A stretch of 41,700 bases of DNA from Thermoplasmata archaeon (GTDB lineage: Archaea; Thermoplasmatota; DTKX01; JAHFTX01), in NCBI GenBank assembly GCA_023265395.1, contig JAHFTX010000028.1:1-41700 (forward strand), given 5' to 3'. Of this stretch, positions 9,691 to 29,518 are shown one piece after another (the first letter of the stretch is position 1; every line of letters begins with the position of its first letter). The notes beneath the pieces were generated by a model, which was not told the origin of the DNA, did no database searches, and was given only the letters and a program-made list of their open reading frames with translations. The translations under genes and the position numbers were made by a program.

Positions 9691-10590
9691 ATGACAGAAC
9701 CGGCCTCAGAGCGCGTGATCTACGGGATGAGTGGAGTGGGCATGTTGGTGGTCAACCTGTCCTTGACCTTCAGTGCCGTGTGGTACATCTGGCTGGGCTT
9801 GGTGGGAGTCCTCCCCCTCGATGCCCTGGCGTTCATCATCATCCTGACCTTGACGATCGTCGGCTTGGTGATGCTCGTCGGCCACTACACGGTCCAACCC
9901 AACGAGGCCGTGGCGCTGACGCGCTTTGGCGTCTACCTGGGGACCGTCCGTGCTGGCGGGCTCAAGTGGACCTCCCCGCTCAACACCACCACCAAGATCT
10001 CACTTCGGTTGCGCGCCTACGAGAGTGCCAAGCTCAAGGTCAACGACAAGGCCGGCAACCCCATCGAGATCGGCGCGGTCATCGTGTGGCAGGTCACCGA
10101 CAGCTACCGTGCGCTCTTCGAGGTCAACGCCTACGAGGACTTCGTGCGCATCCAGAGCGAATCGGCGCTGCGGCATCTGGCGAGCAGCTACGCCTACGAC
10201 CATGGTGAGCAGCATGAGATCACCCTGCGCAACGGGATGGACGAGGTCTCCAGCGCGCTGGTCACCGAGGTCACCAACCGGCTGACCAAGGCGGGGGTGC
10301 TGGTCCAGGAGACCCGCATCGTCCATCTGGCCTACGCACCGGAGATCGCCTCGGTGATGCTGCGCCGCCAACAGGCAGAGGCGATCATCGCCGCCCGTAC
10401 ACGGATCGTCCACGGTGCGGTGTCGATGGTCGAGATGGCGCTGGCCGAGCTGGCAGAGCGCAAGGTGGTCACCTTCGATGCCGAGCGCAAGGCCTCCCTG
10501 GTGGCCAACCTGCTGGTGGTCCTCTGCTCCGAGACCGAGACCCACCCCGTCCTCAACGTCGGCGATTCCTCGGGCTCGACGGCCAAATGA
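9691..10590 (+). CDS. SPFH/band-7 (stomatin/prohibitin-like) membrane protein
   Basis: N-terminal hydrophobic helices ([25 protein letters not shown]; [17 protein letters not shown]) are followed by an SPFH-like core ([24 protein letters not shown]...[10 protein letters not shown]...[13 protein letters not shown]) and a coiled-coil-like C-terminal part ([16 protein letters not shown]). Confidence 0.78.
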
Positions 10591-11123: not shown

Positions 11124-14100
11124 CTAGGGGCCGAGGTTCTGCTGGTCGGCGAGGATCGGGCTGGCCAGGGAGTGTCCCTCGGGCGTCGTGCCGCCGACGT
11201 AGCGGAAGTCCTGCAGGAAGTAGCGCTTCCGACCGCCCTGTTCCTCGACGCGCAGCAGGTCGCTGTTGGAGAGCTTGGTCAGGTGGCGGCTGACGGTCGG
11301 CTGCGGCACGTCCAGTGCCCGCACCAGCTGTTGCTGGTTGATCCCTGGTGCGTCACGGACCGTGCGCAGCAAGAGCCGCTGGAACGTGGTCAGGCGCACC
11401 ACCCTGGTCGGCGGGATCATGGCCGCGGGGAAGTAATGCTTGTACCGTCCGCTGTTGCGTGCCAGCACGTAGCCCTGCTTCTCGAGCATCGCCAGGTGGT
11501 AGGTCAGCACGCCGTTGGAGAGTCCGAGCGCCCGTTGGATCTCCCGATAGTAGGTGCCGGGGTTCTGCTTGATGAACCCGTTGATCTCACCACGGGTGAA
11601 GTTGTCGAGGACCTCCTCCTTGCGGACGCGGGTGTACAGCGGCACCAGGACGGCGAAGATGAATCGGAAGCGCCCCCACTCGGTGCCCGCGACCATGCCC
11701 ACGACCAGCGCGCCCACGCCCAGCGGCGCCAGCAGCACCCACCAGCCCATGGAGGGGGTCCGCACCGGCGCGGTCGGGGGGGCTGCCCGCAAGGCGACGG
11801 AGTCACTGCTGGTGGCGATCTCCCGTCCCGCATGGTTGGTCAGGGTCGCACCAAAGGCATAGGTACGCCCGATCCGCGCGTTCTCGGGGACCTCGACGAG
11901 CAACGGTAGCGACAGCGCCTGGCCCGGCTGGAGGTTGAGGTCGGTCAGCGGCACGGTCGGGTCGGCAAGCACCACACCAAACCCCGGCGGGGAGGAGAGG
12001 GCCAGCTCGAGCCCGACGGCGTGGGGTCCGCTCACGTGGGTGACGGTGACGCTGCCATGGAGGGTCTGCCCCGGTCGGGCACCCGGCGGGAGCTCCAGAC
12101 GCACGCTGAGCACGGCCTCGGGGGCCCCCCCTGGGTTTGGGCCGCCGACCGGTGGTGGCTGGATGGTCAGCCGGGTGGTGCCATGCAGCAGCGCACCGCT
12201 CCAGGGCGGCAGATCCTGCGGCGGCGGAGCCTGCAGGGGGTCGACCACCCACAACTCCACCTCCTCGGTGTGGGGCAAGACGGAGAGCAGCCCTGGGGCA
12301 AGATGCAACGGCAGGTCCACCGCCAGGGTGTGGACCATGCCTGCTCCTAGGGCCGGGACGGTGGCGACGCTGCCGCTCAATCCCAGCTGCTCGGAGGAGA
12401 TCTGCAGGTCGCTCTGCGGCAGGGCAGGCCCAAGGTTGGTGATCGTCAGGTTGACCGCTAGGTGCGGTTGGGGAACGTCGGTGACGAGGGTGCTGGGAAG
12501 GTCCCAGCGCAGGTCGAGCGGCCGCAGGTCGAAGGGCAGCTGCAGCTTGAGCACCTCGCTGCGGTGGTGGCCATCATCGGCCTGAACCTGCAGCTGGACC
12601 TGCCCGCTGACCTCCCCGTGCAACGCCGGGTCGACGACGAAGGACCAGGCTGGCGGCAGGTCGAGCGCCGCGTCGTTCCAGCTGCCGGCGCGCTGCGACT
12701 GCAGCACGCCCAGGTGCAGCTCGCCGCCCTCGAGCTGCTGGGTCAGCCGCGGGTCGAGCACCACGCTCCCCTGCAGCATGAGCGGACCGCTCAGCGGCTG
12801 CAGCGGCAGGGCGCTGCTCAGCAGCAGCTGGGGCGCTGCGTAGGGGGCTTCGACGCGGACCGGAAGCTGCACCGGGTCGGACCAGCGGCCGGACGGGTCG
12901 ACGGCAGCGACCGTCAGCTGGTGGGTGCCGACGGTCAGGGCCGCCTGCGTGGCCGCGGTCAGGGAGGGGCCTTGTTCCACCAAGCCGTCACGGTCGGACC
13001 ACCAGCTGACCTGCAGGGCGTCGGTCGAGCTCTCGTCGACGTCGGCGACCGTGGCGGTCAGCAGCGCCTCCTGTGGCTCGTCCTGCACCAGCACCAGCGG
13101 TTCCGTCAGCGGGAGCGCCAGTTCCGGGAGGTCGACCGTGGGGGCACTGTTGGGGGTGAACCCGAGCGCCAGCTGCTGCAGCGACAGGGTCCCTGCCCCC
13201 TGTGCGCGGATGGTCAGCGGCACATCGAGCTGGAGGCTGCTCGGATCCCCCCATTGGGTCCAGGCGTCGGGCACCGCCGCTGCCGCCTGTGCCGCAACGA
13301 GGGAGGGCAGCAGGTCGACCCGCAGCAGGTCGGCCTCGTAGCTGATGTTGAGCTCCATCAGCTGCACCGAGGACCCAGCGGTGCCACTGACCTCCATGCG
13401 CAGCGCGCGCCAGGGGCGCCCGGCCTCGTCGGTGGTGGGGGTGGCGCCCGTCTGGCCGCTGGCGACGGCATCGTCGAGCGTCTGGAGGTCGAGCGGGGCG
13501 ACGATGGTGCCGTTGAGGTTGCTCTCCGACGACCAGAGCGGCGAGGGGCCGCTGGCGGTCCCAAGGGAGAAGCCCAAGGGACCGGCGCCGTAGCGGAAGG
13601 CCAGCGAGCGCATCGCCCCGTCGTCGCCTGAGGTGCCGGGCTCGGCAGCGAGCATGCGCGCGGCACCGGCCTTGACCGCATCGTCGTTGGGACCGGCGCC
13701 AGGGACGATCGGGTGATAGGCCAGGTCGTAGCCGAGCCAGCCCTGGGGGCGCGCACCGTTGCTGATCGAGACGCGACGACCTTGGAGGTTCTCGAAGGCC
13801 CCGAGGACCACGGCTCCGACGTCATCGTTGACGACGCCATCGATCACCACATCGCGGTAGGGCGCCCCGATGGCGACGTCGGCGACCTTGTCGTGGGTGA
13901 CGTCCTCGGAGATGGCCAGTGCGTTGCCGAATCCCTCGGCGACCTGTCCGCCGACGAGCGTGCTGTCGGCCCCTCGGCCGTCGACCTGCGCGGCGCCGCC
14001 CAGGAAGAGCCCGACGGACCCGGCGCCCCCGGTGGGGGCACCGACCAGCAGGTCGTCGATGCCGTCGCCGGTGACATCGCCGTCGAGCAAGACCGCACTG

Positions 14101-15347
14101 CCGAAGCCGTCGTCAGCAGCGGCCCCTTGGAGGGTGAGGTTGGGGAACGCGCCCACCTGCGCGCCGCCGTAGTAGACCCGCGCTGTGCCGGTGCCCACGA
14201 AGAGCGGGGGTGCGCCGACGGCAAGGTCGGGAGCGCCATCGCCGTTGAGGTCGCCACCGACGGAGAGGGAGAGGCCGAAGCCATCGAAGTCGACGCCCGT
14301 GCTCAGCCGCAGGTCGTAGACCCCGTCCATCCCCGGGCCTCCGAAGTAGAGGTAGGCCTTGCCCGAATCATCCCCGACGTCGTTGTGCATGTCGCCGACG
14401 ACGACATCGGGCCACCCATCGCCGTTGAGGTCCTCCCCACCAGCGACCGAGATCCCGTAGAGGGAGAACATCGCGAAATCGCCGGTGAGCACCAGGTCGG
14501 GAGTGGTGTCGAACACCTGACCGCCGAAGTAGACGAAGGCGGCCCCTGCGCAGGTGATGACCAGGTCATCGACGAGGTCGCCGTTGAGGTCCCCCGCACC
14601 GCTGACGTCCCAGCCGAAGTAGGTCCCGCCGGGGCCTTGGATCATGATCGGGATGGGCTTGGCGATCCCCGGATCGGAATCGGCGTCGATGCCCCACCAG
14701 TCGGTGTAGAGCCACGCGGTGTCTGCCTCAGGCTCGGTGACGACGAAATCGGAGCCCCCATCACCGGTGACGTCCCCGACCACGGCGATCGCATACCCAT
14801 AGCGGCCACCCTGGGCCACGGGCGGCAACAGCCCGCCGCCTGCGAGGTCGATCTGGTCCCCCTTGACGTCGAGGCGGAGCTGCGCTTGCAGCACCGTCGC
14901 GCCGACGGGCAACAGCAGCGGTGGGAAGGAATCGTCCGTGCCCTGCAGGAGCAGCCCTGACTGCGCGCTGCCATCGGCGAGCACGAACTGCCGCCCCGGT
15001 GCGCCCATGCCCGTGCCGCCAAAGAGCGCGAGCTCCGAGGAGCCGACGGTCAGGTGCGCCGAGGTCGGGAGCGCCGTCGGGTCGCTCCCGCCGGGGGTCT
15101 GAGTCGCGACGATCCGCACGCTGGCTGCCTGCAGGTGGGCATCGAAGGGCAGTCGCAACCCCGTAGCGGCCACTCCGCCGTCGTCGGGGTCGACCGCCAG
15201 CTCGACGCGGTCGCTGCCGTCAGCAAACGTCGTGGTCGTCGTCGCTTGGGTCAGCGAAGGGAGCAGGCTCACCAGCACCAACAGGGAAACCCAGAGCATC
15301 GCGCCCCGGCGGACGCGATCGGTGCGGCGGTCGCGGTGCGTCCCCAT
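11124..15347 (-). CDS. single-pass membrane protein with an extracellular FG-GAP repeat beta-propeller plus Ig/PKD-like region and a cytoplasmic C-terminal tandem winged-helix DNA-binding region (ArsR/MarR-like)
   Basis: Signal peptide MLWVSLLVLVSLLPSLTQA follows a basic n-region; Met17 at 15299 is an alternative start. There are multiple integrin-alpha FG-GAP repeats (GDVTGDGGSDFVVTEP, GDLNGDLVDDLVI, DLNGDGWPDVVVG, GDLNGDGAPDLAVGAP, GDVTGDGIDDLLVGAP, DVTHDKVADVAIGAP). A TM helix (MGWWVLLAPLGVGALVVGMVAG) is followed by RFRF. Two wHTH units come next: GTYYREIQRALGLSNGVLTYHLAMLEKQGYVLARNSGRYKHYF and INQQQLVRALDVPQPTVSRHLTKLSNSDLLRVEEQGGRKRYF. Confidence 0.8.
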   Translation of the reverse strand: MGTHRDRRTDRVRRGAMLWVSLLVLVSLLPSLTQATTTTTFADGSDRVELAVDPDDGGVAATGLRLPFDAHLQAASVRIVATQTPGGSDPTALPTSAHLTVGSSELALFGGTGMGAPGRQFVLADGSAQSGLLLQGTDDSFPPLLLPVGATVLQAQLRLDVKGDQIDLAGGGLLPPVAQGGRYGYAIAVVGDVTGDGGSDFVVTEPEADTAWLYTDWWGIDADSDPGIAKPIPIMIQGPGGTYFGWDVSGAGDLNGDLVDDLVITCAGAAFVYFGGQVFDTTPDLVLTGDFAMFSLYGISVAGGEDLNGDGWPDVVVGDMHNDVGDDSGKAYLYFGGPGMDGVYDLRLSTGVDFDGFGLSLSVGGDLNGDGAPDLAVGAPPLFVGTGTARVYYGGAQVGAFPNLTLQGAAADDGFGSAVLLDGDVTGDGIDDLLVGAPTGGAGSVGLFLGGAAQVDGRGADSTLVGGQVAEGFGNALAISEDVTHDKVADVAIGAPYRDVVIDGVVNDDVGAVVLGAFENLQGRRVSISNGARPQGWLGYDLAYHPIVPGAGPNDDAVKAGAARMLAAEPGTSGDDGAMRSLAFRYGAGPLGFSLGTASGPSPLWSSESNLNGTIVAPLDLQTLDDAVASGQTGATPTTDEAGRPWRALRMEVSGTAGSSVQLMELNISYEADLLRVDLLPSLVAAQAAAAVPDAWTQWGDPSSLQLDVPLTIRAQGAGTLSLQQLALGFTPNSAPTVDLPELALPLTEPLVLVQDEPQEALLTATVADVDESSTDALQVSWWSDRDGLVEQGPSLTAATQAALTVGTHQLTVAAVDPSGRWSDPVQLPVRVEAPYAAPQLLLSSALPLQPLSGPLMLQGSVVLDPRLTQQLEGGELHLGVLQSQRAGSWNDAALDLPPAWSFVVDPALHGEVSGQVQLQVQADDGHHRSEVLKLQLPFDLRPLDLRWDLPSTLVTDVPQPHLAVNLTITNLGPALPQSDLQISSEQLGLSGSVATVPALGAGMVHTLAVDLPLHLAPGLLSVLPHTEEVELWVVDPLQAPPPQDLPPWSGALLHGTTRLTIQPPPVGGPNPGGAPEAVLSVRLELPPGARPGQTLHGSVTVTHVSGPHAVGLELALSSPPGFGVVLADPTVPLTDLNLQPGQALSLPLLVEVPENARIGRTYAFGATLTNHAGREIATSSDSVALRAAPPTAPVRTPSMGWWVLLAPLGVGALVVGMVAGTEWGRFRFIFAVLVPLYTRVRKEEVLDNFTRGEINGFIKQNPGTYYREIQRALGLSNGVLTYHLAMLEKQGYVLARNSGRYKHYFPAAMIPPTRVVRLTTFQRLLLRTVRDAPGINQQQLVRALDVPQPTVSRHLTKLSNSDLLRVEEQGGRKRYFLQDFRYVGGTTPEGHSLASPILADQQNLGP

Positions 15348-15374
15348 GAACCCCTTCGTGAGCCGGGCGGGCGC

Positions 15375-15382
15375 CTATATAG
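15375..15382 (-). promoter_or_regulatory. archaeal TATA box (palindromic CTATATAG) for the FG-GAP/wHTH gene; near-leaderless
   Basis: GCCTATATAGTCC is centred about 30 nt upstream of the ATG at 15347, 6 nt past the stop of the upstream minus-strand gene. Confidence 0.5.
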
Positions 15383-15387
15383 TCCTT

Positions 15388-16371
15388 CTAGGGCGCCGTG
15401 GTATCCTTGCGGGCCTGTCCCATCAGGCCCCGCCCCGGCAGGACCAACCCCAGGCTGTCCAGGTGGTCGGCCTTGCTCGAGAGCAGCCTGCCGAGCGGGC
15501 CATCGAACATGGCGTCCAGATCCTGCGGCGCGCACCGCTCCTGTAGGGTCGCGACGAGGGCCGCGACGAAGGCGCCGATCGCTCGAAGGCCGCTGGGGTC
15601 GTTGGCCAGGTGGCTGCCCACGGTGCGGTCGGGATGGATCACCACCCCGATCAGCGCCGGGTAGGCACCCCACAGGACACGCTGGGTGGCACGGACCTGC
15701 TCCACGGTCAGCAGCGGAGCGCACGCGTGCAGCAACGCCTCGAGCAGATCGAGGGCGAGGTCGATGTCGCGCGAGGCAGCGACGCGGAGCGGAGGTCGGG
15801 ACGGACGATGGGCCCCGACCGCGACCGGTGCGTCGACTGCGGCGGTCCCGACCGCGGCACGCAGCTTGCCCGTGCGGACGATATCCTTGTTGCGCCCCCG
15901 CCCCTGGCGCCGCTGCTGCAACGCCTCGAGGCGCGCCCGTGCAGCGGCCACGCGGGCGGCGGTCCCTCGGACGGAGCTCGTCGGCGGATCCTTGGGGAGC
16001 GAAGACCGCGGCACGGCCGGAGACGTGCGCGCAGCGACCGCCTCCTCCAGGAGCGCCTGGGCCTCCTCGGCGTGTTCGATGTCTCGCAGCAGCAGTCCCA
16101 GCGGACCGTCGAGCAGTGCGTCGGCATCCTCCATCTCGACCAGCTGGTCGGTCAAGGCTGTGAGCATCACCACCGCGCGGCGGAAGCGGACCAGGCCCGC
16201 GGCCAGAGCCGCATCATCAGCGCCCTGCAGCAGCCGTTCGAGGGGGGTGACATCGAAGCCCGCACCGCGCCAGATCGTCATCGCGGCGATCGTCTCGAGC
16301 TGGAGTTGCGCGCTGGCGCTGCCGCTTGCTGTCGATGCGCCCCGCTGCCCGCTCCGGGTCCGTGCGACCAT
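15388..16371 (-). CDS. hypothetical protein with an internal duplication
   Basis: 327-aa ORF. Two related segments (DADALLDGPLGLLLRDIEHAEEAQALLEEA and DLDAMFDGPLGRLLSSKADHLDSLGL) suggest a repeated helical module. There is no TM and no known motif. The coding call rests on length and less skewed composition than neighbouring junk frames. Confidence 0.4.
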   Translation of the reverse strand: MVARTRSGQRGASTASGSASAQLQLETIAAMTIWRGAGFDVTPLERLLQGADDAALAAGLVRFRRAVVMLTALTDQLVEMEDADALLDGPLGLLLRDIEHAEEAQALLEEAVAARTSPAVPRSSLPKDPPTSSVRGTAARVAAARARLEALQQRRQGRGRNKDIVRTGKLRAAVGTAAVDAPVAVGAHRPSRPPLRVAASRDIDLALDLLEALLHACAPLLTVEQVRATQRVLWGAYPALIGVVIHPDRTVGSHLANDPSGLRAIGAFVAALVATLQERCAPQDLDAMFDGPLGRLLSSKADHLDSLGLVLPGRGLMGQARKDTTAP

Positions 16372-19128: not shown

Positions 19129-19361
19129 GGCGCGTGAGCACAAGCGGCCCCTGCGGGGCAGCCAGCTGCGCTGTGGGAGAAACTCTTTGCATCCGTCGAC
19201 GTCGATGAGTGACGCAGGGAGCGTGGACCTTCACGTCACCAGCCACTTCGCATCCACCGGCATCCGGTGCCCGGCGCACTCGCCGCCGTCAGGCGCGACA
19301 CCGGTCGGTCGCGCAACGGCGGAGGCGACAGCGACCCACGGCACGACCCTCACGCCCGATC

Positions 19362-20075
19362 GTGGCGCTCCTAAGCGGCGCCGGCTGCATCGCGGTCCTG
19401 CTGGCCCTCGTCGCCGGCGGTTGGGTGAGCCTGCCCCTGCCGTTTGGGCCCGCCACTGCGCCCACCGACCACCACGAGCCCTCCCCCACGCCGGTGCCCA
19501 ACACCCCGCCGCGGCTGGTCTTCGCCCTCAACGTCACCACGACCCCGACGCTGGTGCCCGTCGAGCTCAATGCCTCGCTCTCCCGCGACGCCGAGGGCCC
19601 GATAGAGAGCTACCTCTGGACCATCCACAAGGGTGCCACCGACGGCCCGGTGGTCGCTACCTACCAGAGCAGGGTGGCGACCCATCCGTTCGCCAAGGCC
19701 GGCACCTACTTCGTGCATCTGCAGGTGACCGACGACGGCGGGACCACCGTCCGTTCGGGCCCCTTCGAGGCCAAGGTCCTCGAGGTCACCGATCGGCTCC
19801 CGATGGGCGAGCCCACCTGGGCACCGAGCGCCCCCACCGTCGGTCAGCGGGTCGACTTCTCCGTCCATCCCACCGATGTCGATGGTGAGGTCGAGCAGGT
19901 CCGATGGGACCTGTGGGAGGCCGACGTCCCTGCCAGCGCGCCCCCGCTGGCCTCGGGGCGCGGGACCGCGTGGAGCTTCACCTTCAGTGACAGCGGAGCC
20001 TATCGGCTCGTGCTGAGCCTGACCGATGACGATGGCCAGAACGCGGCGACCACGAGGACGGTGCTGGTGGGCTGA
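19362..20075 (+). CDS. membrane-anchored protein with two PKD-like domains
   Basis: ORF 19209..20075; the first about 50 codons are Arg-rich junk. The start was moved to GTG 19362 (VALLSGAGCIAVLLALVAGGWV = signal/anchor helix). PKD signatures are YLWTIHKGATDG...GTYFVHLQVTDDGGTT and WSFTFSDSGAYRLVLSLTDDDGQNA. The start is uncertain. Confidence 0.5.
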   Translation: MALLSGAGCIAVLLALVAGGWVSLPLPFGPATAPTDHHEPSPTPVPNTPPRLVFALNVTTTPTLVPVELNASLSRDAEGPIESYLWTIHKGATDGPVVATYQSRVATHPFAKAGTYFVHLQVTDDGGTTVRSGPFEAKVLEVTDRLPMGEPTWAPSAPTVGQRVDFSVHPTDVDGEVEQVRWDLWEADVPASAPPLASGRGTAWSFTFSDSGAYRLVLSLTDDDGQNAATTRTVLVG

Positions 20076-20083
20076 GCTGGGCG

Positions 20084-20941
20084 CTACGCCCTGCGCAGCG
20101 CCTCCTCGACGATGTCCATCAGCAGGGCGGCGGTCACCAGCAGGCGCCGGTCGAGCTGGAAGCTGGGGTCGGCACTGGCATCGAGGTACCAGGTGTCCCC
20201 GATGATCTGGAAGCGCTGGTCCAGGCGGGCGATGCGCACGTTGTTGGCCTCGATGAAGTAGTGTGCGGGCAGGAAGGTCAGGATCCGTCGCAGGATCGCC
20301 ATCCCGGCACTGTCCTCGATGATGCGGGCGAAGGGGCGGTCGTAGCCGTCATGGATGTGCCATTCGCTCCGCAGGAAGGAGCGGCCCCACTGCCGCTTGA
20401 GGTAGCCGACCAGCTGTCCGGTGGTGCTGTCGGTGATCCGGAAGGTCGCCCAGGCATCGACGATCTGGGTCTGTTGGACCGCGAGCAGCTCGCGGGTCTT
20501 GCTCTCATCGGTGAAGATGCGGATGTCCTCCTTGAACCGCAGCAGCTTCTGCGCACAGAACCCCAACTGGTTGTTCTGGCCGTCGAGGATGTAGTACTTG
20601 TTGGCGATCGCGAAGACCTTCTGCCGCAGGATGAAGGAGGAGTGGTGCCAGATCGGGGGGACCATCCCCGGCTGGGCCACCTGCTGCTGCTGCGGCGCCC
20701 CTGCGTAGGGTTGCTGCGGGGGGTAGCCCGGTTGCGGTGGCGCTTGGTACTGCGGTTGCGGAGCATACCCGGGCTGGTGCTGCGGGTAGGGCTGCTGCTG
20801 GTACTGCGGTGGCGCACCATACCCCTGCTGCTGCTGGTAGCTCTGCTGCTCGTACTGCTGCGGCGGGTATCCCTGCTGCGCATAGGAAGGAGGCGGGGTC
20901 ATCGGGCGCTCACCATCCTCGGGCATCGGCTCCGAGGGCAT
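20084..20941 (-). CDS. phospholipid scramblase / LURP-one-related (tubby-like fold) family protein with an N-terminal Pro/Gln/Tyr-rich low-complexity domain
   Basis: About 90 aa of PPQQY/QQQPY repeats are followed by ILRQKVFAIANKYYILDGQNNQLGF. A C-terminal YLDASADPSFQLD plus a hydrophobic helix (LLVTAALLMDIV) parallels the scramblase Ca-binding motif DADNFGIQFPLD and C-terminal helix. ORF 20084..20992; Met18 at 20941 was preferred because it leaves intergenic space with the divergent AMMECR1 gene. Confidence 0.55.
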   Translation of the reverse strand: MPSEPMPEDGERPMTPPPSYAQQGYPPQQYEQQSYQQQQGYGAPPQYQQQPYPQHQPGYAPQPQYQAPPQPGYPPQQPYAGAPQQQQVAQPGMVPPIWHHSSFILRQKVFAIANKYYILDGQNNQLGFCAQKLLRFKEDIRIFTDESKTRELLAVQQTQIVDAWATFRITDSTTGQLVGYLKRQWGRSFLRSEWHIHDGYDRPFARIIEDSAGMAILRRILTFLPAHYFIEANNVRIARLDQRFQIIGDTWYLDASADPSFQLDRRLLVTAALLMDIVEEALRRA

Positions 20942-21023
20942 GAACCATTCGCCACGACCAGCGGCTGCTGCAGGCCAGTCCTGCGCACGCAACCTCTATG
21001 CCCCCTGCGGAGTCCGTGCCCGC

Positions 21024-22893: not shown

Positions 22894-23763
22894 ATGGCCA
22901 TCCTCCTCGACCTGAGCACCCGCCTGCTCATCCAAGGGATCACCGGCCACCAGGGGACCTTCCACGCCCAGGCGTGCCGGGAGTTCGGCACCTACGTCGC
23001 AGCGGGGGTCACCCCCGGCAAGGGAGGCACGACCCAGGGCGGCGTGCCGGTCTTCGACACCGTCGCCCAAGCGGTCGCGGCGCAACGGCCCAACGTCAGC
23101 CTGATCTTCGTCCCGGCGCGCTTCGCCATGGATGCGGTCTTCGAGGCGATCGACGCCGGGGGGATCCAGACGGTCATCGTGATCACCGAGCACATCCCCT
23201 TCCATGACGCGTTGCGGATGGTCACCTACGCGCGGCTGCGCGGCGTGCGCATCGTCGGGCCCAACTGCCCCGGGGTCATCAGCCCCTGCCAGGCGGTCAA
23301 GGCCGGGATCATGCCCTCGAGCATCTTCACGGCCGGTGACCACGCGGTCATCTCCCGCAGCGGCACGCTCACCTACGAGATCGTCCACCACATGAGCGTC
23401 AACGGCTTGGGCCAGTCGACCGTGCTGGGGCTCGGCGGGGACCCGGTGGTGGGCACCACCTTCATCGAAGCGCTGGCGCTGCTGCAGGCGGACCCCGAGA
23501 CGGAGAAGATCGTCCTGGTCGGCGAGATCGGCGGCAGCGCCGAGGAGGATGCCGCCGCCTACATCACGCAGCATGTCACCAAGCCCGTGGTGGCCTACAT
23601 CGCCGGCCACAGCGCGCCCGAGGGCAAGCGCATGGGCCATGCCGGTGCGATCATCACCCGCGGCAAGGGCACCGCCGCCTCCAAGGCCCACGCGCTCGAG
23701 AAGGCCGGCGTCGCCGTCGCCAAGCGCCCCTTCGAGGTCCCCCAGCTGCTGAAGAAGGCCTAG
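22894..23763 (+). CDS. sucD: succinyl-CoA ligase alpha subunit
   Basis: [24 protein letters not shown]... The phosphohistidine loop context is [13 protein letters not shown] and the CoA-binding N-terminal domain is present. 289 aa. Confidence 0.9.
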
Positions 23764-24743
23764 GGGAGCAGGCGCAAGAGCGCCCACAGCAGCAGGTTGC
23801 CACCGATCACGCTGAGCACCAGACCTGCCACGACGAACACCAGCAGCGGGATCTTGGGCGTCACCAGCACCTGCGTCTCACCAGCATCCTCGAGGGCGCG
23901 CAGCTGCTCCTCGAGCGCCTTGCCCTCGAGCGGCGCTGCCCGCAGGAACGAGCCGGTCCAGACGTGCTCCCCGCCGTGGAACCGGCTGAGCAGCCACACA
24001 TGGGAGCTGCGGACCTCATCGATGGGGGCGCAGTAGGCGTTGAACATGTGCAGCCCCACCGTCGAGTCGCGCAGGTTGCGGACCATCAATGCCAGTGGCA
24101 CCAACAGGACCAGCAACACCGCGTTGGTCAGCACGACCCAGCTGAACGGATAGGACTGCTGCGCGATCGACGGCACGCTCGCCAGCGGCAGGCTCGTCAG
24201 CAACGGCGCGAGGCTGGGTGATCGGGGGAAGAGGACGCAGAGGGCGATCAGCGCATTCTTGTCGGCTCCGCCGGCGATGACCCGCAGCCGGTAGAGGGCG
24301 TAGAAGCCACCTTGGACGAGCAGGGCCAGCAGCGCCGCCGCCACCACACCGACCCCTCCCGTGCCTCCGTCAGGACGCGGTGCAAGCGCGATGACCACCA
24401 GACCCGCGACCGCCAAGAGGCACCCGACGGTCAGCGCCAGGTTCCATCGGTGCGCGATGGCGTCATCGGCAGGGTCCGGCTGGTCGGTTGCATCGGGCTC
24501 ACCCTCGAAGAAGGTCCCGTTGTAGAGCGCCAGGACGAACACCAGGATCGGGCCCAGCGGCAGCAGCAGCAGCGGCAGCGGTGCTCCGGCCGCGACGAGC
24601 TCGACGACCCACAGGCCGCCTCCGACGCAGGCCATCGCCACCCACAGCAGGTTCGACGCCAAGCGCGTGCGCAGATCGGTCGCCGCGCCGATGGAGAGCA
24701 GGGCCACTGCGACCGCGACTCGCGCCACGTCAATCCACGTCAT
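23760..24743 (-). CDS. archaeal prepilin/preflagellin peptidase (A24 family, PibD/FlaK/EppA-like) with an extended C-terminal membrane domain
   Basis: First catalytic Asp is in an N-terminal cytoplasmic loop after TM1 (LSIGAATDLRTRL). Second Asp is in the signature IAGGADKNALIALCVLFP (the G-G-A-D-x-K motif of type IV prepilin peptidases). Polytopic membrane protein. Overlaps the sucD stop by 4 nt (convergent). Confidence 0.72.
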   Translation of the reverse strand: MTWIDVARVAVAVALLSIGAATDLRTRLASNLLWVAMACVGGGLWVVELVAAGAPLPLLLLPLGPILVFVLALYNGTFFEGEPDATDQPDPADDAIAHRWNLALTVGCLLAVAGLVVIALAPRPDGGTGGVGVVAAALLALLVQGGFYALYRLRVIAGGADKNALIALCVLFPRSPSLAPLLTSLPLASVPSIAQQSYPFSWVVLTNAVLLVLLVPLALMVRNLRDSTVGLHMFNAYCAPIDEVRSSHVWLLSRFHGGEHVWTGSFLRAAPLEGKALEEQLRALEDAGETQVLVTPKIPLLVFVVAGLVLSVIGGNLLLWALLRLLP

Positions 24744-24883: not shown

Positions 24884-25642
24884 ATGGGTGGCACGGGGCC
24901 CAAGGCGGAACGTCTACCCCGACTGGCGTCTGGAATCGAGGCGCTCGACCGGGCCCTCTCGGGCGGGATCCCCATCGGCAACAGCGTCCTGCTGGCTGGC
25001 AGCTGCGGCACGGGGAAGACCACCCTGGCGGCCGAGTTCCTGCTGGCGGGCGCACGGGCCAAGGAACCCTCGCTGCTGCTGGCTGTCACCGAGGACGCAG
25101 AACGGCTCCTCGAGAACCTGCGCACCTACGAGTTCTTCGACCAAGCCTTGGTCGGCCCGGGGAAGTTCGAGCTCCTCGACGTCGCCGAGCTCTACAAGGG
25201 ATCGCCCCTGGAGAAGACTACAGTCCTGGGGGCTGCCGACGTGCCGGTGCTGGTCAAGCTCCTGCTCGATCAGGTCGACAAGCGCAAGACCCGACGACTG
25301 GTGATCGATAGCCTGACGGGGTTGTGCTTGCGCTTCCCCAGCAAGGAGCTCGTCCGCGACTTCGTCTCGACGCTGTCCAAGGGGCTCTCCAAGCGCGGGG
25401 TCACCTGCCTGCTCATCAGCGAGCTCGAGGCAGGCTCGACCGGTCACAGCTCCCACGGCGTCGAGGACGCCGTCGTCGATGGCGTGCTGCAGCTGGGCAA
25501 CACCGTCAGCCGTGGCCACCTGCTGCGCACGTTGCAGATCGTCAAGATGCGCGGCACGCCCCACAGCCGCACCCGCTACGTGCTCGAGCTCAGCCACTAC
25601 GGGGCGATCCTCGTGCCGCTGCTGCGGTCGGGGAAGGCCTAA
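24884..25642 (+). CDS. KaiC-like / RecA-superfamily single-domain ATPase (ArlH/FlaH-like size)
   Basis: In frame with ORF 24488..25642, starting at ATG 24884 (MGGTGPKAERLPRLASGIEALDRAL). Walker A is LLAGSCGTGKTTLA. Walker B-like is TRRLVIDSLTGL. C-terminal VTCLLISELEAG...LQIVKMRGTPHS is typical of KaiC/RadA-like proteins. About 252 aa. Confidence 0.8.
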   Translation: MGGTGPKAERLPRLASGIEALDRALSGGIPIGNSVLLAGSCGTGKTTLAAEFLLAGARAKEPSLLLAVTEDAERLLENLRTYEFFDQALVGPGKFELLDVAELYKGSPLEKTTVLGAADVPVLVKLLLDQVDKRKTRRLVIDSLTGLCLRFPSKELVRDFVSTLSKGLSKRGVTCLLISELEAGSTGHSSHGVEDAVVDGVLQLGNTVSRGHLLRTLQIVKMRGTPHSRTRYVLELSHYGAILVPLLRSGKA

Positions 25643-25653
25643 GGAGGAGCTGC

Positions 25654-26247
25654 ATGGAACCCCTCGAGGAGAAGGTCCGCTCGCAGCTGGAGGAGACTCA
25701 GCCGGGCAGCGCCGTCTCGCTGGTGACCGACCTCTCGGGCTACTTCGATGCGCTCAAGGGGTTCGTCGGCTACGCCTCGGCAGCGGGGCTGCACACCATC
25801 TACATCACCGCGACGATCCCCAGCGCCGTCGTCCATGGGCAGCTGACCAGCCAGGGCCTCAACCTCGAGGACGCCCATTTCATCGACTGCATCAGCTTCA
25901 TGGTCGGCGGGCCGCGCCAGGAAGAGGGTCCCTACATGTTCGTCGAGAGCCCCACCATGCTCGAGACGATCCTCGTGAAGGTCGAGCTGTGGATGAAGCG
26001 GCTCGGACCCGACCACGACTACGTGGTGTTCCTCGACAGCGTCAACACGCTGGCGATGCACAACGACGACAAGATCGTCCAAGAGTTCCTGCACTACCTG
26101 ATCACCTCGCTGCGCGCGCGCAAGGTCCGCTGCGTCGTCCTCTCCGTCGAGGGGCAGACCCCCAAGGAGATCGAGACCATCCTCAAGCTCCTCTGCGATG
26201 AGAGCATCGCCGCGCTGCCAGAAGCCGAGGACGGCGCCTCCGAGTGA
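25654..26247 (+). CDS. P-loop-less KaiC/RecA-like paralog (degenerate ATPase-fold protein)
   Basis: AGGAGG lies 7 nt upstream of ATG 25654. Blocks align with the upstream KaiC-like protein (HDYVVFLDSVNTLAMH vs RRLVIDSLTGLCLR; KVRCVVLSVEGQ vs GVTCLLISELEAG). The Walker A position reads GYASAAGLHTIYIT with no GKT/S. Confidence 0.55.
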   Translation: MEPLEEKVRSQLEETQPGSAVSLVTDLSGYFDALKGFVGYASAAGLHTIYITATIPSAVVHGQLTSQGLNLEDAHFIDCISFMVGGPRQEEGPYMFVESPTMLETILVKVELWMKRLGPDHDYVVFLDSVNTLAMHNDDKIVQEFLHYLITSLRARKVRCVVLSVEGQTPKEIETILKLLCDESIAALPEAEDGASE

Positions 26248-26362
26248 GCCCACCCGCGCGCCACCAGCCCCGTGGGAATGTCTATCGTGGCACTCGTTAG
26301 CATGGCTCACGGGGTGTGATATAACTCCTTTGCGTGCATCTCTGTCCCCTCCGATGAAACCC

Positions 26363-26369
26363 TTATATA
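26363..26369 (+). promoter_or_regulatory. strong archaeal TATA box (TTATATA) with a purine-rich BRE-like GAAA upstream; pilin promoter
   Basis: GATGAAACCCTTATATACTG. TATA is about 55 nt upstream of ATG 26422. GAGGA sits 8 nt before the ATG as an SD. Confidence 0.55.
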
Positions 26370-26421
26370 CTGCGCGAACAGGGTCAGGGGTGCGGCGCCT
26401 CGGTGCCGCAGAGGACACAAC

Positions 26422-27063
26422 ATGAAGTACGTAAAGTGGGCAAATCTGAACAAGGAGGAGCAGGCGGTTTCGCCTGTGATCGCTACCATCCTGATGGTCG
26501 CGATCACGGTCGTCCTGGCCGGCGTCCTGGTGGTCTACATGCAGAGCTTCCAGAACGTCGGTGGCGGGACGAACGTCGTGGCGAGCATCTCCGCCAAGAC
26601 GTTCTCCAACCCCCAGGACCCGATGACCCGCAATGGCGGGGGCTGGACGGTCGAGGTCGTCTCCGTCAAGAGCGGTACCCTGAACATCGCGGACATGACG
26701 GTCAACGTCAAGGGATCGAGCGGTGCCAACCTGGGCAGCCTGGTGGGCGCAACGCCGACCCTCAAGGACACCTCGGGAACGGTCGACTACTACCTGTTCT
26801 CCGAGGCCCTGGCCACCTGCGACTACTGGAGCGGCGCGGCGGTAACGGCCGACTGCACCGGTGCCACGGGCAACGAGTTCAACACCATGGAGAACGCGAC
26901 CATCGTCCTATTGGACAACGATGCTAGCGGCACCCTGACGGCGTCGGACACCGTCCTGGTATTCAAGGATACCAACGGTGATGGAACCAACGACATCTCC
27001 AGCCAATCGGTCGTGGAGCTCAAGGCCGCCACCACCAAGGTCGCGCAGACCGATCTCAACTAG
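26422..27063 (+). CDS. archaeal type IV pilin-like protein precursor (class III signal peptide, DUF361/Pilin_N-type N-terminus)
   Basis: MKYVKWANLNKEEQA-VSPVIATILMVAITVVLAGVLVVY is a charged n-region followed by the conserved VSPVIAT.LMVAITVVLA hydrophobic segment. The mature part is Thr/Ser/Gly-rich and beta-rich (about 190 aa). A terminator hairpin lies immediately downstream. Confidence 0.8.
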   Translation: MKYVKWANLNKEEQAVSPVIATILMVAITVVLAGVLVVYMQSFQNVGGGTNVVASISAKTFSNPQDPMTRNGGGWTVEVVSVKSGTLNIADMTVNVKGSSGANLGSLVGATPTLKDTSGTVDYYLFSEALATCDYWSGAAVTADCTGATGNEFNTMENATIVLLDNDASGTLTASDTVLVFKDTNGDGTNDISSQSVVELKAATTKVAQTDLN

Positions 27064-29463: not shown

Positions 29464-29500
29464 GCGATTGCCCGCGGCAGCCACCAAGGATTATATACGC

Positions 29501-29518
29501 ACGTTCGGTTGCGAACGT
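29501..29518. promoter_or_regulatory. 18-bp perfect palindrome ACGTTCG-GTTG-CGAACGT between two TATA-like elements (TTATATA 29491-29497; TTTATAC 29551-29557) upstream of a large surface-protein gene
   Basis: Read directly from the sequence. A third GCGTTCG half-site follows at about 29528-29534. GGAGGACG lies 7 nt upstream of ATG 29582. Confidence 0.45.

What the first reader, a model, noticed from the sequence alone, without database searches (positions are those of the whole stretch)
11124..15382. Surface FG-GAP beta-propeller fused through a single TM helix to tandem cytoplasmic winged-helix DNA-binding domains
The sequence shows an N-terminal signal peptide, about 1150 aa of extracellular FG-GAP (integrin-alpha-type) repeats plus Ig/PKD-like region, one TM helix, and two ArsR/MarR-like wHTH units at the cytoplasmic C-terminus. 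Each unit has a recognition helix (LSNGVLTYHL; VPQPTVSRHL) and a wing ending R(K)YF. This is a ToxR/CadC-like one-component transmembrane transcription factor in inverted topology (sensor N-out, DNA-binding C-in) with an adhesin-type ectodomain. Such a protein could couple surface contact or ligand binding directly to transcription. I cannot place it in a characterised family from memory. It has its own palindromic TATA promoter and sits among large surface-protein genes, including one with a palindromic operator-like site (29501-29518).
Basis: partly seen in the sequence, partly recalled or inferred. Interest (0 to 1): 0.78.

Follow-up and report, generated by a model that had tools for sequence, protein, structure and literature searches.

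The report
Archaeal surface receptor with DNA-binding tail
One archaeal gene encodes a large surface protein whose short cytoplasmic tail carries two DNA-binding domains. It belongs to a very large family in one archaeal phylum that no paper I found describes, and that may link what the cell touches directly to gene control.

Summary
ORF 11124-15347 (- strand, 1407 aa) is one uninterrupted gene. It encodes a signal peptide, six clear FG-GAP repeats plus a possible seventh, a beta-rich stalk, one TM helix, and two ArsR/MarR-type winged-helix (wHTH) domains at a strongly basic C-terminus.

It is not a one-off fusion. The module [quoted passage not shown] is always C-terminal. It matches 2,746 protein clusters at E<=1e-10, on proteins of 177-1568 aa with swapped ectodomains (PKD, CARDB, He_PIG, Big_9, FG-GAP). 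TM-anchored forms were found only in MAGs labelled Thermoplasmatota or with generic archaeal names, often several per genome. Sources name them only "wHTH/MarR/predicted transcriptional regulator", and I found no paper describing the family.

Among paralogs in one genome, wHTH1 stays conserved (52% identity; recognition helix 63%). wHTH2 diverges (30%; recognition helix 29%).

Best reading: an outside-in, membrane-tethered one-component transcription regulator. It resembles ToxR/CadC only by analogy, because the DNA-binding family and the topology both differ.

AlphaFold2 gives no confident intramolecular pseudo-dimer. The 29501-29518 palindrome is not statistically unusual and nothing links it to this protein. 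No conserved partner gene was found. DNA binding and signalling are inferred, not shown.

The parts
15375..15382 (-). TATA-like element CTATATAG, preceded by purine-rich AGAAGGA, about 31 nt from its centre to the ATG. Putative own promoter for a near-leaderless mRNA.
   Evidence: Read directly from the sequence. Orthologs in L120 and L121 also have TATA-rich elements 20-150 nt upstream. Function was not tested.
11124..15347 (-). Complete ORF, 1407 aa plus the stop codon.
15243..15347 (-). Signal peptide, aa 1-35: Arg-rich n-region, h-region LWVSLLVLVSLLPSL, then TQA before TTTT.
   Evidence: Hydropathy peak at aa 15-33. 55 of 73 full-length family members have an N-terminal hydrophobic segment.
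14823..15242 (-). N-terminal ectodomain region, aa 36-175, with no family match.
   Evidence: No Pfam hit at E<=1.
13713..14822 (-). FG-GAP repeat region, aa about 176-545: six clear repeats plus a possible degenerate seventh, so a probable beta-propeller.
   Evidence: Pfam FG-GAP and FG-GAP_3. Repeat motifs at aa 183, 244, 297, 357, 415 and 473. The region is homologous over 800-990 aa to P0003, P0004, P0005 and P0129.
11754..13712 (-). Stalk, aa 546-1198, probably beta-sandwich (Ig-like) modules. Only weak PKD/Big_13 and NPCBM_assoc/CARDB-like similarity.
   Evidence: E 0.03-0.04. Orthologs carry Big_7, Ig_VWA7 and FixG_C hits here.
11685..11753 (-). Single transmembrane helix, aa 1199-1221.
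   Evidence: Hydropathy 2.08. AlphaFold2 helix at aa 1203-1221. Across the family the columns are hydrophobic but otherwise variable, with small residues (G/A/S) at the cytoplasmic end.
11616..11684 (-). Conserved juxtamembrane element, aa 1222-1244: T-E-x-G-K/R-Y/F, an 8-11 residue hydrophobic stretch, then invariant P-L-Y-T-R and a basic cluster.
   Evidence: Near-invariant columns T1222, E1223, G1225, P1236, L1237, Y1238 in 129 representatives. AlphaFold2 models it as one helix running into helix 1 of wHTH1.
11427..11615 (-). wHTH1, aa 1245-1307: recognition helix NGVLTYHLAMLEKQ, wing ending KHYFP. This is the constant domain of the family.
   Evidence: Pfam PF24266 and HTH_24. PDB 5duk_A matches at E 4.4e-12. 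pLDDT 95-98. 52% identity between within-genome paralogs.
11394..11426 (-). Inter-domain linker, aa 1308-1318.
   Evidence: pLDDT falls to 67-78, and below 50 at three residues.
11214..11393 (-). wHTH2, aa 1319-1378: recognition helix PQPTVSRHLTKLS, wing ending KRYF. This is the variable domain of the family.
   Evidence: Pfam MarR_2, HTH_5 and HTH_20. ArsR 6j05 and MarR 3bpv/3bpx match by sequence and by fold, rmsd 1.2-2.1 A. 30% identity between within-genome paralogs.
11127..11213 (-). C-terminal extension, aa 1379-1407, predicted disordered and not conserved.
   Evidence: pLDDT below 50. Columns are mostly gaps across the family.

Best explanation
The gene encodes a type I membrane protein of a Thermoplasmatota archaeon.

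Anatomy:
- A cleaved signal peptide directs about 1,160 aa to the cell surface. This part holds an FG-GAP beta-propeller on a beta-rich stalk.
- One TM helix crosses the membrane.
- A strongly basic, roughly 185-aa cytoplasmic tail carries two minimal ArsR/MarR-type winged-helix domains, joined by a flexible linker.
- The tail is held close to the membrane by a conserved juxtamembrane helix (TExGKY, hydrophobic stretch, PLYTR).

Proposed mechanism: it works as a membrane-tethered one-component regulator. Binding of a ligand or surface by the ectodomain changes the oligomeric state or orientation of the tails, and so changes how the wHTH domains engage DNA at the membrane.

Family context: the protein is one member of a large paralogous family. 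The ectodomain is exchanged between members. wHTH1 is the constant part, serving a common function such as pairing or general DNA contact. wHTH2 is the part that diverges between paralogs, consistent with paralog-specific DNA targets.

Shown: gene integrity, domain identities, single TM helix, basic tail, family size and taxonomic labels, the conservation pattern, and the absence of kinase, receiver or other transmitter domains.

Inferred: C-in topology, DNA binding, coupling of the ectodomain to transcription, and the target genes.
For: - Architecture.
- wHTH folds: both fold with pLDDT 93-98. They match the DNA-binding regulators ArsR, MarR and MexR by sequence and fold.
- Charge: the 145-aa core has a mean net charge of +9.4 in 129 family representatives, and +11 here. 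Wing and recognition-helix K/R/H positions are conserved.
- Family size and layout: the tail query matches 7,240 clusters at E<=1e-3, 2,746 at E<=1e-10 and 140 at E<=1e-30. All 150 best matches lie at the extreme C-terminus, about 35 aa after a TM segment.
- Ectodomains: they vary among 64 members scanned (PKD 16, NPCBM_assoc 11, He_PIG 10, CARDB 10, Big_9 9, FG-GAP_3 7), while all 64 keep PF24266.
- This exact architecture is conserved: FG-GAP plus tail persists at 26-31% identity over 800-990 aa.
- Domain divergence: within-genome paralogs are 52% identical in wHTH1 and 30% in wHTH2. Their recognition helices are 63% and 29% identical.
- Ectodomain and tail travel together: the nearest tail relative shares ectodomain homology in 65 of 105 cases, against 6.3% of random pairs.
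- The tail is not needed for anchoring: three other large surface proteins in this window anchor by a C-terminal TM helix with tails lacking any wHTH.
- The module can act alone: stand-alone soluble tandem-wHTH relatives exist in MAGs labelled Thermoplasmatota and Nitrososphaeria.
- Precedent for the class: transmembrane transcription regulators are a recognised class in bacteria and archaea (PMC10269533). ArnR and ArnR1 are characterised archaeal examples (PMC6396743, PMC5007285).
Against: - No DNA target, operator or regulon could be identified.
- No neighbour gene is conserved in 79 loci, and ortholog contexts differ.
- wHTH1 joins the juxtamembrane helix with no flexible linker, which may hinder DNA access at the membrane.
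- Each wHTH unit lacks the dimerisation helices of ArsR and MarR. AlphaFold2 does not fix the two units into a DNA-binding pseudo-dimer (pTM 0.51).
- Tandem winged helices also serve as protein scaffolds or RNA binders, as in ScpB, ESCRT-II and SelB, which were among the best whole-model Foldseek matches.
- The very high conservation of wHTH1 across different ectodomains also fits a common, non-specific partner.
- Topology rests on hydropathy, charge and domain logic, not on a dedicated predictor. The K+R bias in the immediate TM flanks is weak (1.57 against 1.11).
Confidence: 0.5

Rival explanations
1. Release by regulated proteolysis, as in Notch, SREBP or RsgI. The membrane-bound form is inactive. 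Ligand binding or pulling on the adhesin ectodomain triggers cleavage at or near the conserved cytoplasmic TM boundary ((G/A)(G/S)-T-E-x-G-K-Y). The tandem wHTH is then freed as a soluble transcription factor.
For: - T-E-x-G-K-Y at the TM exit is the best-conserved part of the TM and its immediate flanks, which otherwise vary, and it is preceded by small, helix-weakening residues.
- wHTH1 has no flexible tether, so release would remove the steric problem.
- Soluble tandem-wHTH paralogs in MAGs labelled Thermoplasmatota begin M-G-Y-K-R, resembling the sequence just after the putative cut.
- From established knowledge: adhesin-like ectodomains on proteolytically released transcription factors are known in eukaryotes. 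Clostridial RsgI anti-sigma factors combine variable ectodomains with a conserved cytoplasmic part and intramembrane cleavage.
Against: - No protease gene (rhomboid, S2P or other) is conserved near family members.
- No cleavage product or processing motif has been demonstrated.
- The conserved motif could equally be a membrane-interface or dimerisation element.
- The resemblance to the soluble paralogs' N-terminus covers only four residues.
Confidence: 0.17
2. Structural tether, not a regulator. The conserved tandem winged-helix tail is a cytoplasmic anchoring module. It couples surface adhesins to the nucleoid non-specifically, or to a common cytoplasmic protein scaffold, perhaps stabilising surface proteins in an archaeon that may lack a rigid wall.
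For: - wHTH1 is extremely conserved whatever the ectodomain: 8 invariant and many near-invariant columns in 129 representatives clustered at 50% identity.
- The best whole-model structural matches include the protein-scaffold tandem winged helices ScpB and ESCRT-II.
- No operator or regulon was found.
- The strong positive charge would equally fit non-specific DNA or anionic-lipid binding.
Against: - Other surface proteins in the same window anchor perfectly well by a TM helix plus a short tail without wHTH.
- The wHTH2 recognition helix diverges between paralogs in one genome (29% identity) while its fold-defining residues stay conserved. This is not expected for one common partner.
- Both units score above the Pfam cut-offs of DNA-binding regulator families.
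Confidence: 0.2
3. The wHTH domains lie outside the cell. The short hydrophobic stretch after the TM helix forms a second span, giving a hairpin with the C-terminus out.
For: A second hydrophobic stretch (FRFIFAVLVPLY) follows the TM helix after a short polar turn.
Against: - The stretch is only 8-12 residues long, is flanked by K/R, and contains an invariant Pro.
- AlphaFold2 models it as continuous with helix 1 of wHTH1.
- The domain that follows carries about +9 net charge and belongs to cytoplasmic DNA-binding families.
Confidence: 0.03
4. Artefact: two genes joined by a frameshift, a mis-assembly or a wrong gene call.
For: None found.
Against: - It is a single ORF with uniform codon bias.
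- The identical protein occurs on an independent assembly.
- The same ectodomain-TM-tail layout occurs in more than 100 homologs from many assemblies.
- Orthologs keep FG-GAP plus tail at about 30% identity.
Confidence: 0.01

Closest known systems
Transmembrane transcription regulators (TTRs) as surveyed by Demey et al. 2023 (PMC10269533). The characterised archaeal examples are ArnR and ArnR1 of Sulfolobus acidocaldarius (PMC6396743, PMC5007285).
   Same: One polypeptide combines a DNA-binding domain with a membrane anchor. No kinase or receiver domain lies between the sensor and the DNA-binding part. Both are archaeal.
   Different: [quoted passage not shown] Here the order is reversed: signal peptide, about 1,160-aa ectodomain, TM helix, then two tandem wHTH domains at the C-terminus. 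The main text of the census does not mention Thermoplasmatota, PKD or FG-GAP.
ToxR, CadC and TcpP (bacterial single-pass transcription activators)
   Same: Single-pass membrane protein with the sensor outside and a winged-helix DNA-binding domain inside, and no phosphorelay.
   Different: Those proteins carry an N-terminal OmpR/PhoB-type domain and a C-terminal periplasmic sensor. Here there are two ArsR/MarR-type units, they are C-terminal, and there is a cleavable signal peptide. No Trans_reg_C match was found. The resemblance is functional, not membership.
ArsR/SmtB and MarR family repressors, and Pfam PF24266 (HTH_HVO_0163_N)
   Same: Each tail unit matches these families by sequence above the Pfam cut-offs, and by fold at rmsd 1.2-2.1 A.
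   Different: Those are soluble homodimers with extra dimerisation helices and ligand or metal sites. Here two minimal units (three helices plus a hairpin) sit in tandem on one chain, fused to a TM helix and lacking those helices.
Clostridial RsgI anti-sigma factors and Bacteroides hybrid two-component systems (from established knowledge, not tested here)
   Same: Many paralogs per genome pair a conserved cytoplasmic output part with diverse carbohydrate-binding or beta-propeller ectodomains across one TM helix. They act as outside-in sensors of polymers.
   Different: RsgI outputs through a partner sigma factor and proteolysis. Hybrid two-component systems insert kinase and receiver domains before an AraC-type HTH. 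Here the DNA-binding domains are fused directly, and no kinase, receiver or anti-sigma domain is present.
Integrin alpha-type FG-GAP beta-propeller surface proteins
   Same: FG-GAP repeats with Ca-loop-like DxNGDG motifs, a beta-sandwich stalk, a single TM helix and a short cytoplasmic tail.
   Different: Integrin tails bind cytoskeletal adaptors. Here the tail is a pair of DNA-binding-type domains. The seven-bladed geometry was not modelled.

Membership tests
Transmembrane transcription regulators (operational class of PMC10269533) | A predicted DNA-binding domain in the protein | tested here: met
   HTH_24 51.1 bits (cut-off 21.9), MarR_2 43.2 (27), HTH_5 40.1 (22), HTH_20 38.8 (27), PF24266 60.7 (31).
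Transmembrane transcription regulators (operational class of PMC10269533) | At least one predicted transmembrane region | tested here: met
   Hydropathy peak at aa 1204-1222. AlphaFold2 helix at aa 1203-1221.
Transmembrane transcription regulators (operational class of PMC10269533) | Actually regulates transcription from the membrane | not testable with these tools
   Needs DNA-binding and expression experiments.
ToxR/CadC family | OmpR/PhoB-type (Trans_reg_C) winged-helix DNA-binding domain | tested here: not met
   No Trans_reg_C hit even at E<=1. All hits are ArsR, MarR or HTH_24-type.
ToxR/CadC family | DNA-binding domain N-terminal and cytoplasmic, sensor C-terminal and periplasmic | tested here: not met
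   The order here is signal peptide, ectodomain, TM helix, wHTH.
ArsR/SmtB and MarR family regulators | Winged helix-turn-helix fold with a recognition helix and a beta-hairpin wing | tested here: met
   Pfam hits. AlphaFold2 pLDDT 93-98 with H-H-H-E-E topology. Foldseek rmsd 1.2-2.1 A to MarR, MexR and ArsR.
ArsR/SmtB and MarR family regulators | Flanking helices that build the homodimer (alpha1/alpha5 in ArsR; alpha1, alpha5 and alpha6 in MarR) | tested here: not met
   Each unit has only three helices plus the hairpin. No extra helices appear between or after the units.
ArsR/SmtB and MarR family regulators | NCBIfam ArsR/SmtB subfamily score | tested here: not met
   NF033788 scores 48.8 bits against a cut-off of 55.
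Pfam PF24266 HTH_HVO_0163_N | Score above the gathering threshold | tested here: met
   60.7 bits against 31. All 64 family members scanned also match.
Thermoplasmatota 'ectodomain, TM, tandem wHTH' family (defined here) | C-terminal module: TM, T-E-x-G-K-Y, short hydrophobic stretch, P-L-Y-T/S-R, wHTH1 (R-G...P-G...N-G-x-L-x-Y-H-L-x-x-L-E), linker, wHTH2, then the end of the protein | tested here: met
   The window protein carries every invariant column (P1236, L1237, R1252, G1253, P1263, G1264, H1284, L1288) of 129 representatives. The best non-self matches reach E 1.7e-51.
Thermoplasmatota 'ectodomain, TM, tandem wHTH' family (defined here) | Host is a Thermoplasmatota archaeon | tested here: met
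   The window carries an archaeal pilin and prepilin peptidase. The best SucC relatives are 58-60% identical, and all the named ones come from MAGs labelled Thermoplasmata or Thermoplasmatota, or with generic archaeal names (Methanobacteriota archaeon, Euryarchaeota archaeon).
Integrin-alpha-type FG-GAP beta-propeller | FG-GAP repeats above threshold, in a number compatible with seven blades | tested here: met
   74.8 bits against 22.1. Six clear repeats spaced 53-61 aa apart, plus a possible degenerate seventh.
Integrin-alpha-type FG-GAP beta-propeller | A closed seven-bladed propeller structure | not tested
Membrane-tethered transcription factors released by regulated proteolysis (Notch, SREBP, RsgI type) | Signal-dependent cleavage that releases the cytoplasmic domain | not testable with these tools
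   The only hints are the conserved TM-exit motif and the M-G-Y-K-R start of the soluble paralogs.

The most novel reading that the evidence does not exclude
These proteins form a phylum-wide set of archaeal contact or adhesion receptors that signal without kinases. Each paralog pairs a different adhesin-type ectodomain with its own wHTH2 specificity. Engagement of the ectodomain, possibly by mechanical pull, triggers cleavage at the conserved T-E-x-G-K-Y membrane exit and releases a tandem winged-helix transcription factor. That would be a prokaryotic counterpart of Notch-type signalling, and the main outside-in pathway of Thermoplasmatota, including the marine Poseidoniales.
Probability: 0.12. 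Interest if true: 0.85.

Novelty: new variant of a known kind. Interest (0 to 1): 0.6.

Why it matters
The MAGs carrying this family include lineages labelled Poseidoniales (Marine Group II/III). From general knowledge, these are abundant, uncultured planktonic archaea, and how they sense particles, polymers or surfaces is essentially unknown.

- **Scale.** The family has thousands of sequence clusters and often several paralogs per genome. It joins swappable adhesin or carbohydrate-binding-type ectodomains directly to DNA-binding domains. That would be a simple and possibly dominant route from the cell surface to the genome.
- **A readout of what is sensed.** The ectodomain repertoire of a genome would list what the organism monitors.
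- **A testable division of labour.** The constant wHTH1 and variable wHTH2 give a concrete hypothesis for how one scaffold serves many inputs and outputs.
- **An open general question.** It also bears on how a transcription factor fixed at the membrane reaches DNA in cells without a nucleus.

If the tail instead proves to be a structural tether, it would be a new kind of cytoplasmic anchoring module for archaeal surface proteins.

Tried and rejected
- **Word-index homolog search with the tail.** It found only one fragment, which wrongly suggested rarity. The exhaustive HMMER search showed the family is very large.
- **The search for related loci with tail alignments A2 and A3.** I replaced them with a hand-built degenerate DNA pattern, first checked on the window. 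The first version had a miscounted spacer and found nothing. The corrected version was then run on genome contigs.
- **Limits of the pattern scan.** The pattern also biases which subfamilies are seen.
- **Conserved partner genes.** All-against-all clustering of ORFs in 79 loci gave nothing beyond local synteny.
- **The 29501-29518 palindrome as an operator for this protein.** It has no related site at the gene's own promoter or elsewhere. It is not unusual in number: 8 observed against about 6 expected for that geometry.
- **Shared upstream motif among orthologs.** L120 and L121 show only TATA-like elements.
- **Intramolecular pseudo-dimer of the two wHTH units.** AlphaFold2 of the soluble part gave pTM 0.51 and a low-confidence linker, so no arrangement can be claimed.
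- **The afdb50 fold library.** It was not available.
- **Literature searches.** They found the general census and ArnR, but no description of this family. The library holds open-access papers only, so absence is not proof.
- **Pfam on the upstream gene and other unannotated ORFs.** Nothing informative came back.


Full report
**1. The observation**

The finding's coordinates hold one ORF, 11124..15347 on the minus strand, 1407 aa, with an ATG start. Its codon-position GC (0.74/0.49/0.89) matches the other real genes of this 69% GC window. There is no frameshift. The identical protein is also called on a separately assembled 6,059-bp contig.

Pfam gives these hits, all above their gathering scores:

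| Family | Score or E-value | Position (aa) |
|---|---|---|
| FG-GAP | E 4.4e-21 | repeats across about 180-540 |
| HTH_HVO_0163_N (PF24266) | 60.7 bits | 1251-1309 |
| HTH_24 | 51.1 bits | 1259-1294 |
| MarR_2 / HTH_5 / HTH_20 | 43.2 / 40.1 / 38.8 bits | within 1323-1375 |

- Scanning the ectodomain in pieces places FG-GAP repeats between about aa 180 and 540. It gives only weak PKD/Big_13 (E 0.03) and NPCBM_assoc (E 0.04) similarity further on.
- Six clear repeats with D-x-N/T-G-D-G loops start at aa 183, 244, 297, 357, 415 and 473.
- Hydropathy finds two hydrophobic segments only. One is an N-terminal signal-peptide-like segment (aa 15-33, followed by TQA/TTTT). The other is aa 1199-1222.
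- A TATA-like CTATATAG lies at 15375-15382, directly after the stop codon of the upstream gene. Its centre is about 31 nt from the ATG, as expected for a near-leaderless archaeal transcript.

**2. The host**

The window carries an archaeal type IV pilin and an archaeal prepilin peptidase. SucC from the window has its best non-self relatives at 58-60% identity. All the named ones come from MAGs labelled Thermoplasmata or Thermoplasmatota, or with generic archaeal names. The window equals a whole 41,700-bp public contig. The host is therefore a high-GC, rather divergent Thermoplasmatota archaeon.

**3. The main result: a large family, not a unique fusion**

A word-index search with the tail found a single fragment. 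An exhaustive HMMER search of 1.84 billion cluster representatives with aa 1195-1407 found 7,240 clusters at E<=1e-3, 2,746 at E<=1e-10 and 140 at E<=1e-30.

- In all 150 best hits the match lies at the extreme C-terminus, on proteins of 177 to 1,568 aa.
- In nearly all of them a hydrophobic segment lies about 35 residues before a P-L-Y-x-R motif, and 145-180 residues follow it.
- Alignment of the tails defines the module in this order:
  - a TM helix that is hydrophobic but otherwise variable;
  - T-E-x-G-K-Y;
  - an 8-11 residue hydrophobic stretch;
  - invariant P-L-Y-T/S-R and a basic cluster;
  - a very conserved wHTH1 (invariant R-G, P-G, H-L, L);
  - a short linker;
  - a less conserved wHTH2.
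- Of 64 full-length members scanned, all carry PF24266, while the ectodomains differ: PKD 16, NPCBM_assoc 11, He_PIG 10, CARDB 10, Big_9 9, FG-GAP_3 7, FG-GAP 5.
- The FG-GAP plus tail combination is itself conserved. P0005, P0003, P0004 and P0129 align with the window's ectodomain over 800-990 aa at 26-31% identity.
- Ectodomain and tail largely travel together. The nearest tail relative shares ectodomain homology in 65 of 105 cases, against 6.3% of random pairs.

**4. Distribution**

- The 79 loci with a family protein of at least 230 aa, nearly all with a TM segment before the tail, all come from MAGs with these labels: Thermoplasmata, Thermoplasmatales, Thermoplasmatota, Methanomassiliicoccales, Poseidoniales (MGII/MGIII), or generic 'Methanobacteriota / Euryarchaeota archaeon' or 'uncultured archaeon'.
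- Several genomes contribute several paralogs. One Methanomassiliicoccales MAG has four. These counts are lower bounds.
- Short soluble relatives fall into two groups. One is 139-171 aa, in MAGs labelled Thermoplasmatota. The other is 166-188 aa with an extra C-terminal helical part, in MAGs labelled Nitrososphaeria or Thermoproteota.
- Public names are automatic only: 'winged helix-turn-helix transcriptional regulator', 'MarR family', 'predicted transcriptional regulator'.
- NCBIfam has no model that the protein passes.

**5. Structure of the tail**

AlphaFold2 was run on aa 1190-1407 with a 73-sequence alignment. It gave mean pLDDT 85.5, with these elements:

| Element | Residues (aa) |
|---|---|
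| TM helix | 1203-1221 |
| Break | T1222 |
| Single long helix (hydrophobic stretch, P-L-Y-T-R, then helix 1 of wHTH1) | 1223-1261 |
| wHTH1 recognition helix | 1278-1291 |
| wHTH1 wing | 1294-1307 |
| Linker | 1308-1320 |
| wHTH2 recognition helix | 1349-1361 |
| wHTH2 wing | 1365-1378 |
| Disordered end | from about 1382 |

- Each unit is a minimal three-helix winged helix, without the extra dimerisation helices of ArsR or MarR.
- The soluble part alone (aa 1236-1385, 99 sequences) again gives confident domains, but pTM is 0.51 and the linker falls below pLDDT 50. The relative arrangement of the two units is not predicted, so the proposed intramolecular pseudo-dimer is unsupported.
- By sequence, the nearest solved chain to wHTH1 is 5duk_A, a 77-aa 'putative DNA binding protein' (E 4.4e-12). 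wHTH2 is nearest to ArsR and MarR proteins.
- By fold, single units superpose on MarR, MexR and ArsR at 1.2-2.1 A. The whole model picks up other tandem winged-helix proteins (RPC34, TFIIIC, ScpB, SelB, ESCRT-II) only at high rmsd.
- The 145-aa core is strongly basic: mean net charge +9.4 in 129 representatives, +11 here.

**6. Topology**

- A signal peptide plus a single TM helix puts the tail inside the cell.
- The second hydrophobic stretch is too short to span the membrane (8-12 residues). It is flanked by K/R, contains the invariant Pro, and is modelled as continuous with wHTH1.
- 55 of 73 full-length members have an N-terminal hydrophobic segment.
- The ectodomain families are typical extracytoplasmic modules.
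- The K+R bias in the immediate flanks of the TM helix is weak (1.57 against 1.11). The stronger argument is the basic tail as a whole.
- No dedicated topology predictor was available.

**7. Clues to function**

- *The tail is not needed for anchoring.* Three other large surface proteins in this window have a C-terminal TM helix followed by tails with no wHTH.
- *The two wHTH units evolve differently.* Within one genome, paralogs keep wHTH1 at 52% identity, with the recognition helix at 63%. wHTH2 is at 30%, with the recognition helix at 29%. Over all pairs the values are 54% and 32%. This fits a constant function for wHTH1 and paralog-specific recognition by wHTH2, although weaker constraint alone could also explain it.
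- *There is no conserved partner.* No neighbour gene is conserved across 79 loci.
- *Ortholog contexts differ.* P0005 lies between two FG-GAP/PKD surface-protein genes, next to an S8 protease with CARDB. P0003 and P0004 lie among metabolic genes.
- *No transmitter domain is present.* No kinase, receiver, HAMP or anti-sigma domain was found.

**8. The palindrome at 29501-29518**

It is a perfect 7+4+7 inverted repeat (ACGTTCG GTTG CGAACGT). It lies directly downstream of a TATA-like ATTATATAC and 64 nt upstream of the probable ATG (29582) of a CARDB/NPCBM_assoc surface protein.

- The only other match in the window, allowing up to 3 mismatches, is a 3-mismatch site inside a coding region (10471-10488). 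Shuffles give as many matches.
- The window holds 8 perfect inverted repeats of that geometry against about 6 expected. It holds 72 against 51 +/- 8 for spacers 0-8.
- Its position is suggestive of an operator for some regulator, but nothing ties it to this protein.

**9. Interpretation**

The best-supported reading (about 0.5) is a kinase-free, membrane-tethered one-component regulator. An adhesin-type ectodomain reports to tandem winged-helix domains that contact DNA at the membrane.

- A variant (about 0.17) is release of the tail by proteolysis at the conserved T-E-x-G-K-Y membrane exit. The hints are the absence of a tether before wHTH1 and the soluble paralogs that begin M-G-Y-K-R.
- The main non-regulatory rival (about 0.2) is a structural tether to the nucleoid or to a common cytoplasmic partner. 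The extreme conservation of wHTH1 and the scaffold-type tandem winged helices among the fold matches support it.
- An outside location for the wHTH domains (about 0.03) and an assembly or gene-call artefact (about 0.01) are unlikely.

**10. Comparison with known systems**

- The protein meets the operational definition of a transmembrane transcription regulator, that is, a DNA-binding domain plus a TM region (PMC10269533).
- That census does not discuss Thermoplasmatota, PKD or FG-GAP in its main text.
- It is not a ToxR/CadC family member, because both the DNA-binding domain type and the orientation fail.
- From established knowledge, the closest functional analogues are clostridial RsgI factors and Bacteroides hybrid two-component systems. 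Both have many paralogs with variable polymer-binding ectodomains and a conserved cytoplasmic output. Both use intermediates that are absent here.

**11. Verdict**

The finding is real and correctly described, but its uniqueness was overstated. It is one member of a very large family in Thermoplasmatota that carries only automatic names and that I found described in no paper. I rate it a new variant of a known kind, with interest 0.6. DNA binding, signalling and targets remain to be shown.

Noticed in passing
window 29489-29534: A perfect inverted repeat ACGTTCG-GTTG-CGAACGT (29501-29518) lies directly 3' of a TATA-like ATTATATAC and 64 nt before the probable ATG (29582) of a CARDB/NPCBM_assoc surface protein. 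A third CGTTCG copy lies at about 29529. The position looks like an operator, but the number of such repeats in the window is near chance expectation.
   Followed up: partly
window 29582-32035, 32196-36515, 38346-41645 (-), 19209-20075: Four further surface-protein genes (CARDB/NPCBM_assoc, PKD). Three have a C-terminal TM helix and tails lacking any wHTH. The 1439-aa protein has a roughly 170-aa acidic, Gln-rich tail with a repeated QQVVEHDS motif.
   Followed up: partly
window 37658-38212: A 184-aa Ras/Roc-type small GTPase (Pfam Roc E 3e-13, Ras E 7e-11) in an archaeal contig, next to a pfkB kinase gene and a tRNA-Thr gene.
   Followed up: no
window 23760-24743 (-) and 26422-27063: An archaeal prepilin peptidase (Arc_PepC_II) and a type IV pilin (Pilin_N) lie about 2 kb apart. 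Two unannotated ORFs sit between them (24914-25597 and 25639-26418, both - strand). This may be a small pilus locus.
   Followed up: no
window 20084-20992 (-): A 302-aa ORF with good codon bias. It has a Gln/Pro/Tyr-rich, low-complexity N-terminal third (PQQYEQQSYQQQQGY...) and a globular C-terminal part with no Pfam match at E<=1.
   Followed up: partly
window 15388-16371 (-): The gene directly upstream of the finding (327 aa, same strand, stop codon 40 nt before the ATG) has no Pfam match. The TATA-like element lies in the gap between the genes, so co-transcription is not required, but it is not excluded.
   Followed up: partly
L006, L011, L039 (MAGs labelled Thermoplasmatota or Thermoplasmatales): Soluble 139-171-aa tandem-wHTH paralogs without a TM helix. 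Two begin M-G-Y-K-R and the third has the same motif after a short N-terminal extension. This resembles the G-K-Y-K sequence just after the TM helix of the anchored family, as if they matched a released tail.
   Followed up: partly
L010, L021, L052, L054, L074 and about 25 other loci: MAGs labelled Nitrososphaeria or Thermoproteota encode a related soluble family of 166-188 aa. It has two wHTH units plus a conserved C-terminal helical extension (...YKESFxDKVVDNYxxMxxEL). One locus (L021) carries two copies on opposite strands.
   Followed up: no
L121 396-12044: The FG-GAP/tail ortholog P0005 lies between two divergently oriented FG-GAP/PKD surface-protein genes (1094 and 1022 aa, no wHTH). A Peptidase_S8 + CARDB gene lies nearby. 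This may be a local sensor-plus-adhesin cluster. It is not seen at the loci of P0003 or P0004.
   Followed up: partly
L103 4336-7884 and seven other loci: In 8 loci the family member lies near a homologous surface protein of about 1,180 aa with Asp/Gly-rich repeats (TDGDGTDDSIDDCP...). This was the only recurrent neighbour found.
   Followed up: no
L036 (Ignavibacteriaceae MAG) and L073 (Phycisphaerales MAG): Two contigs binned as bacterial carry archaeal-type members of these wHTH families. The likely cause is mis-binning rather than transfer.
   Followed up: no
whole window: Perfect inverted repeats with 7-nt arms and spacers of 0-8 nt number 72, against 51 +/- 8 in first-order Markov simulations. 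This is a mild overall excess of unknown cause.
   Followed up: no
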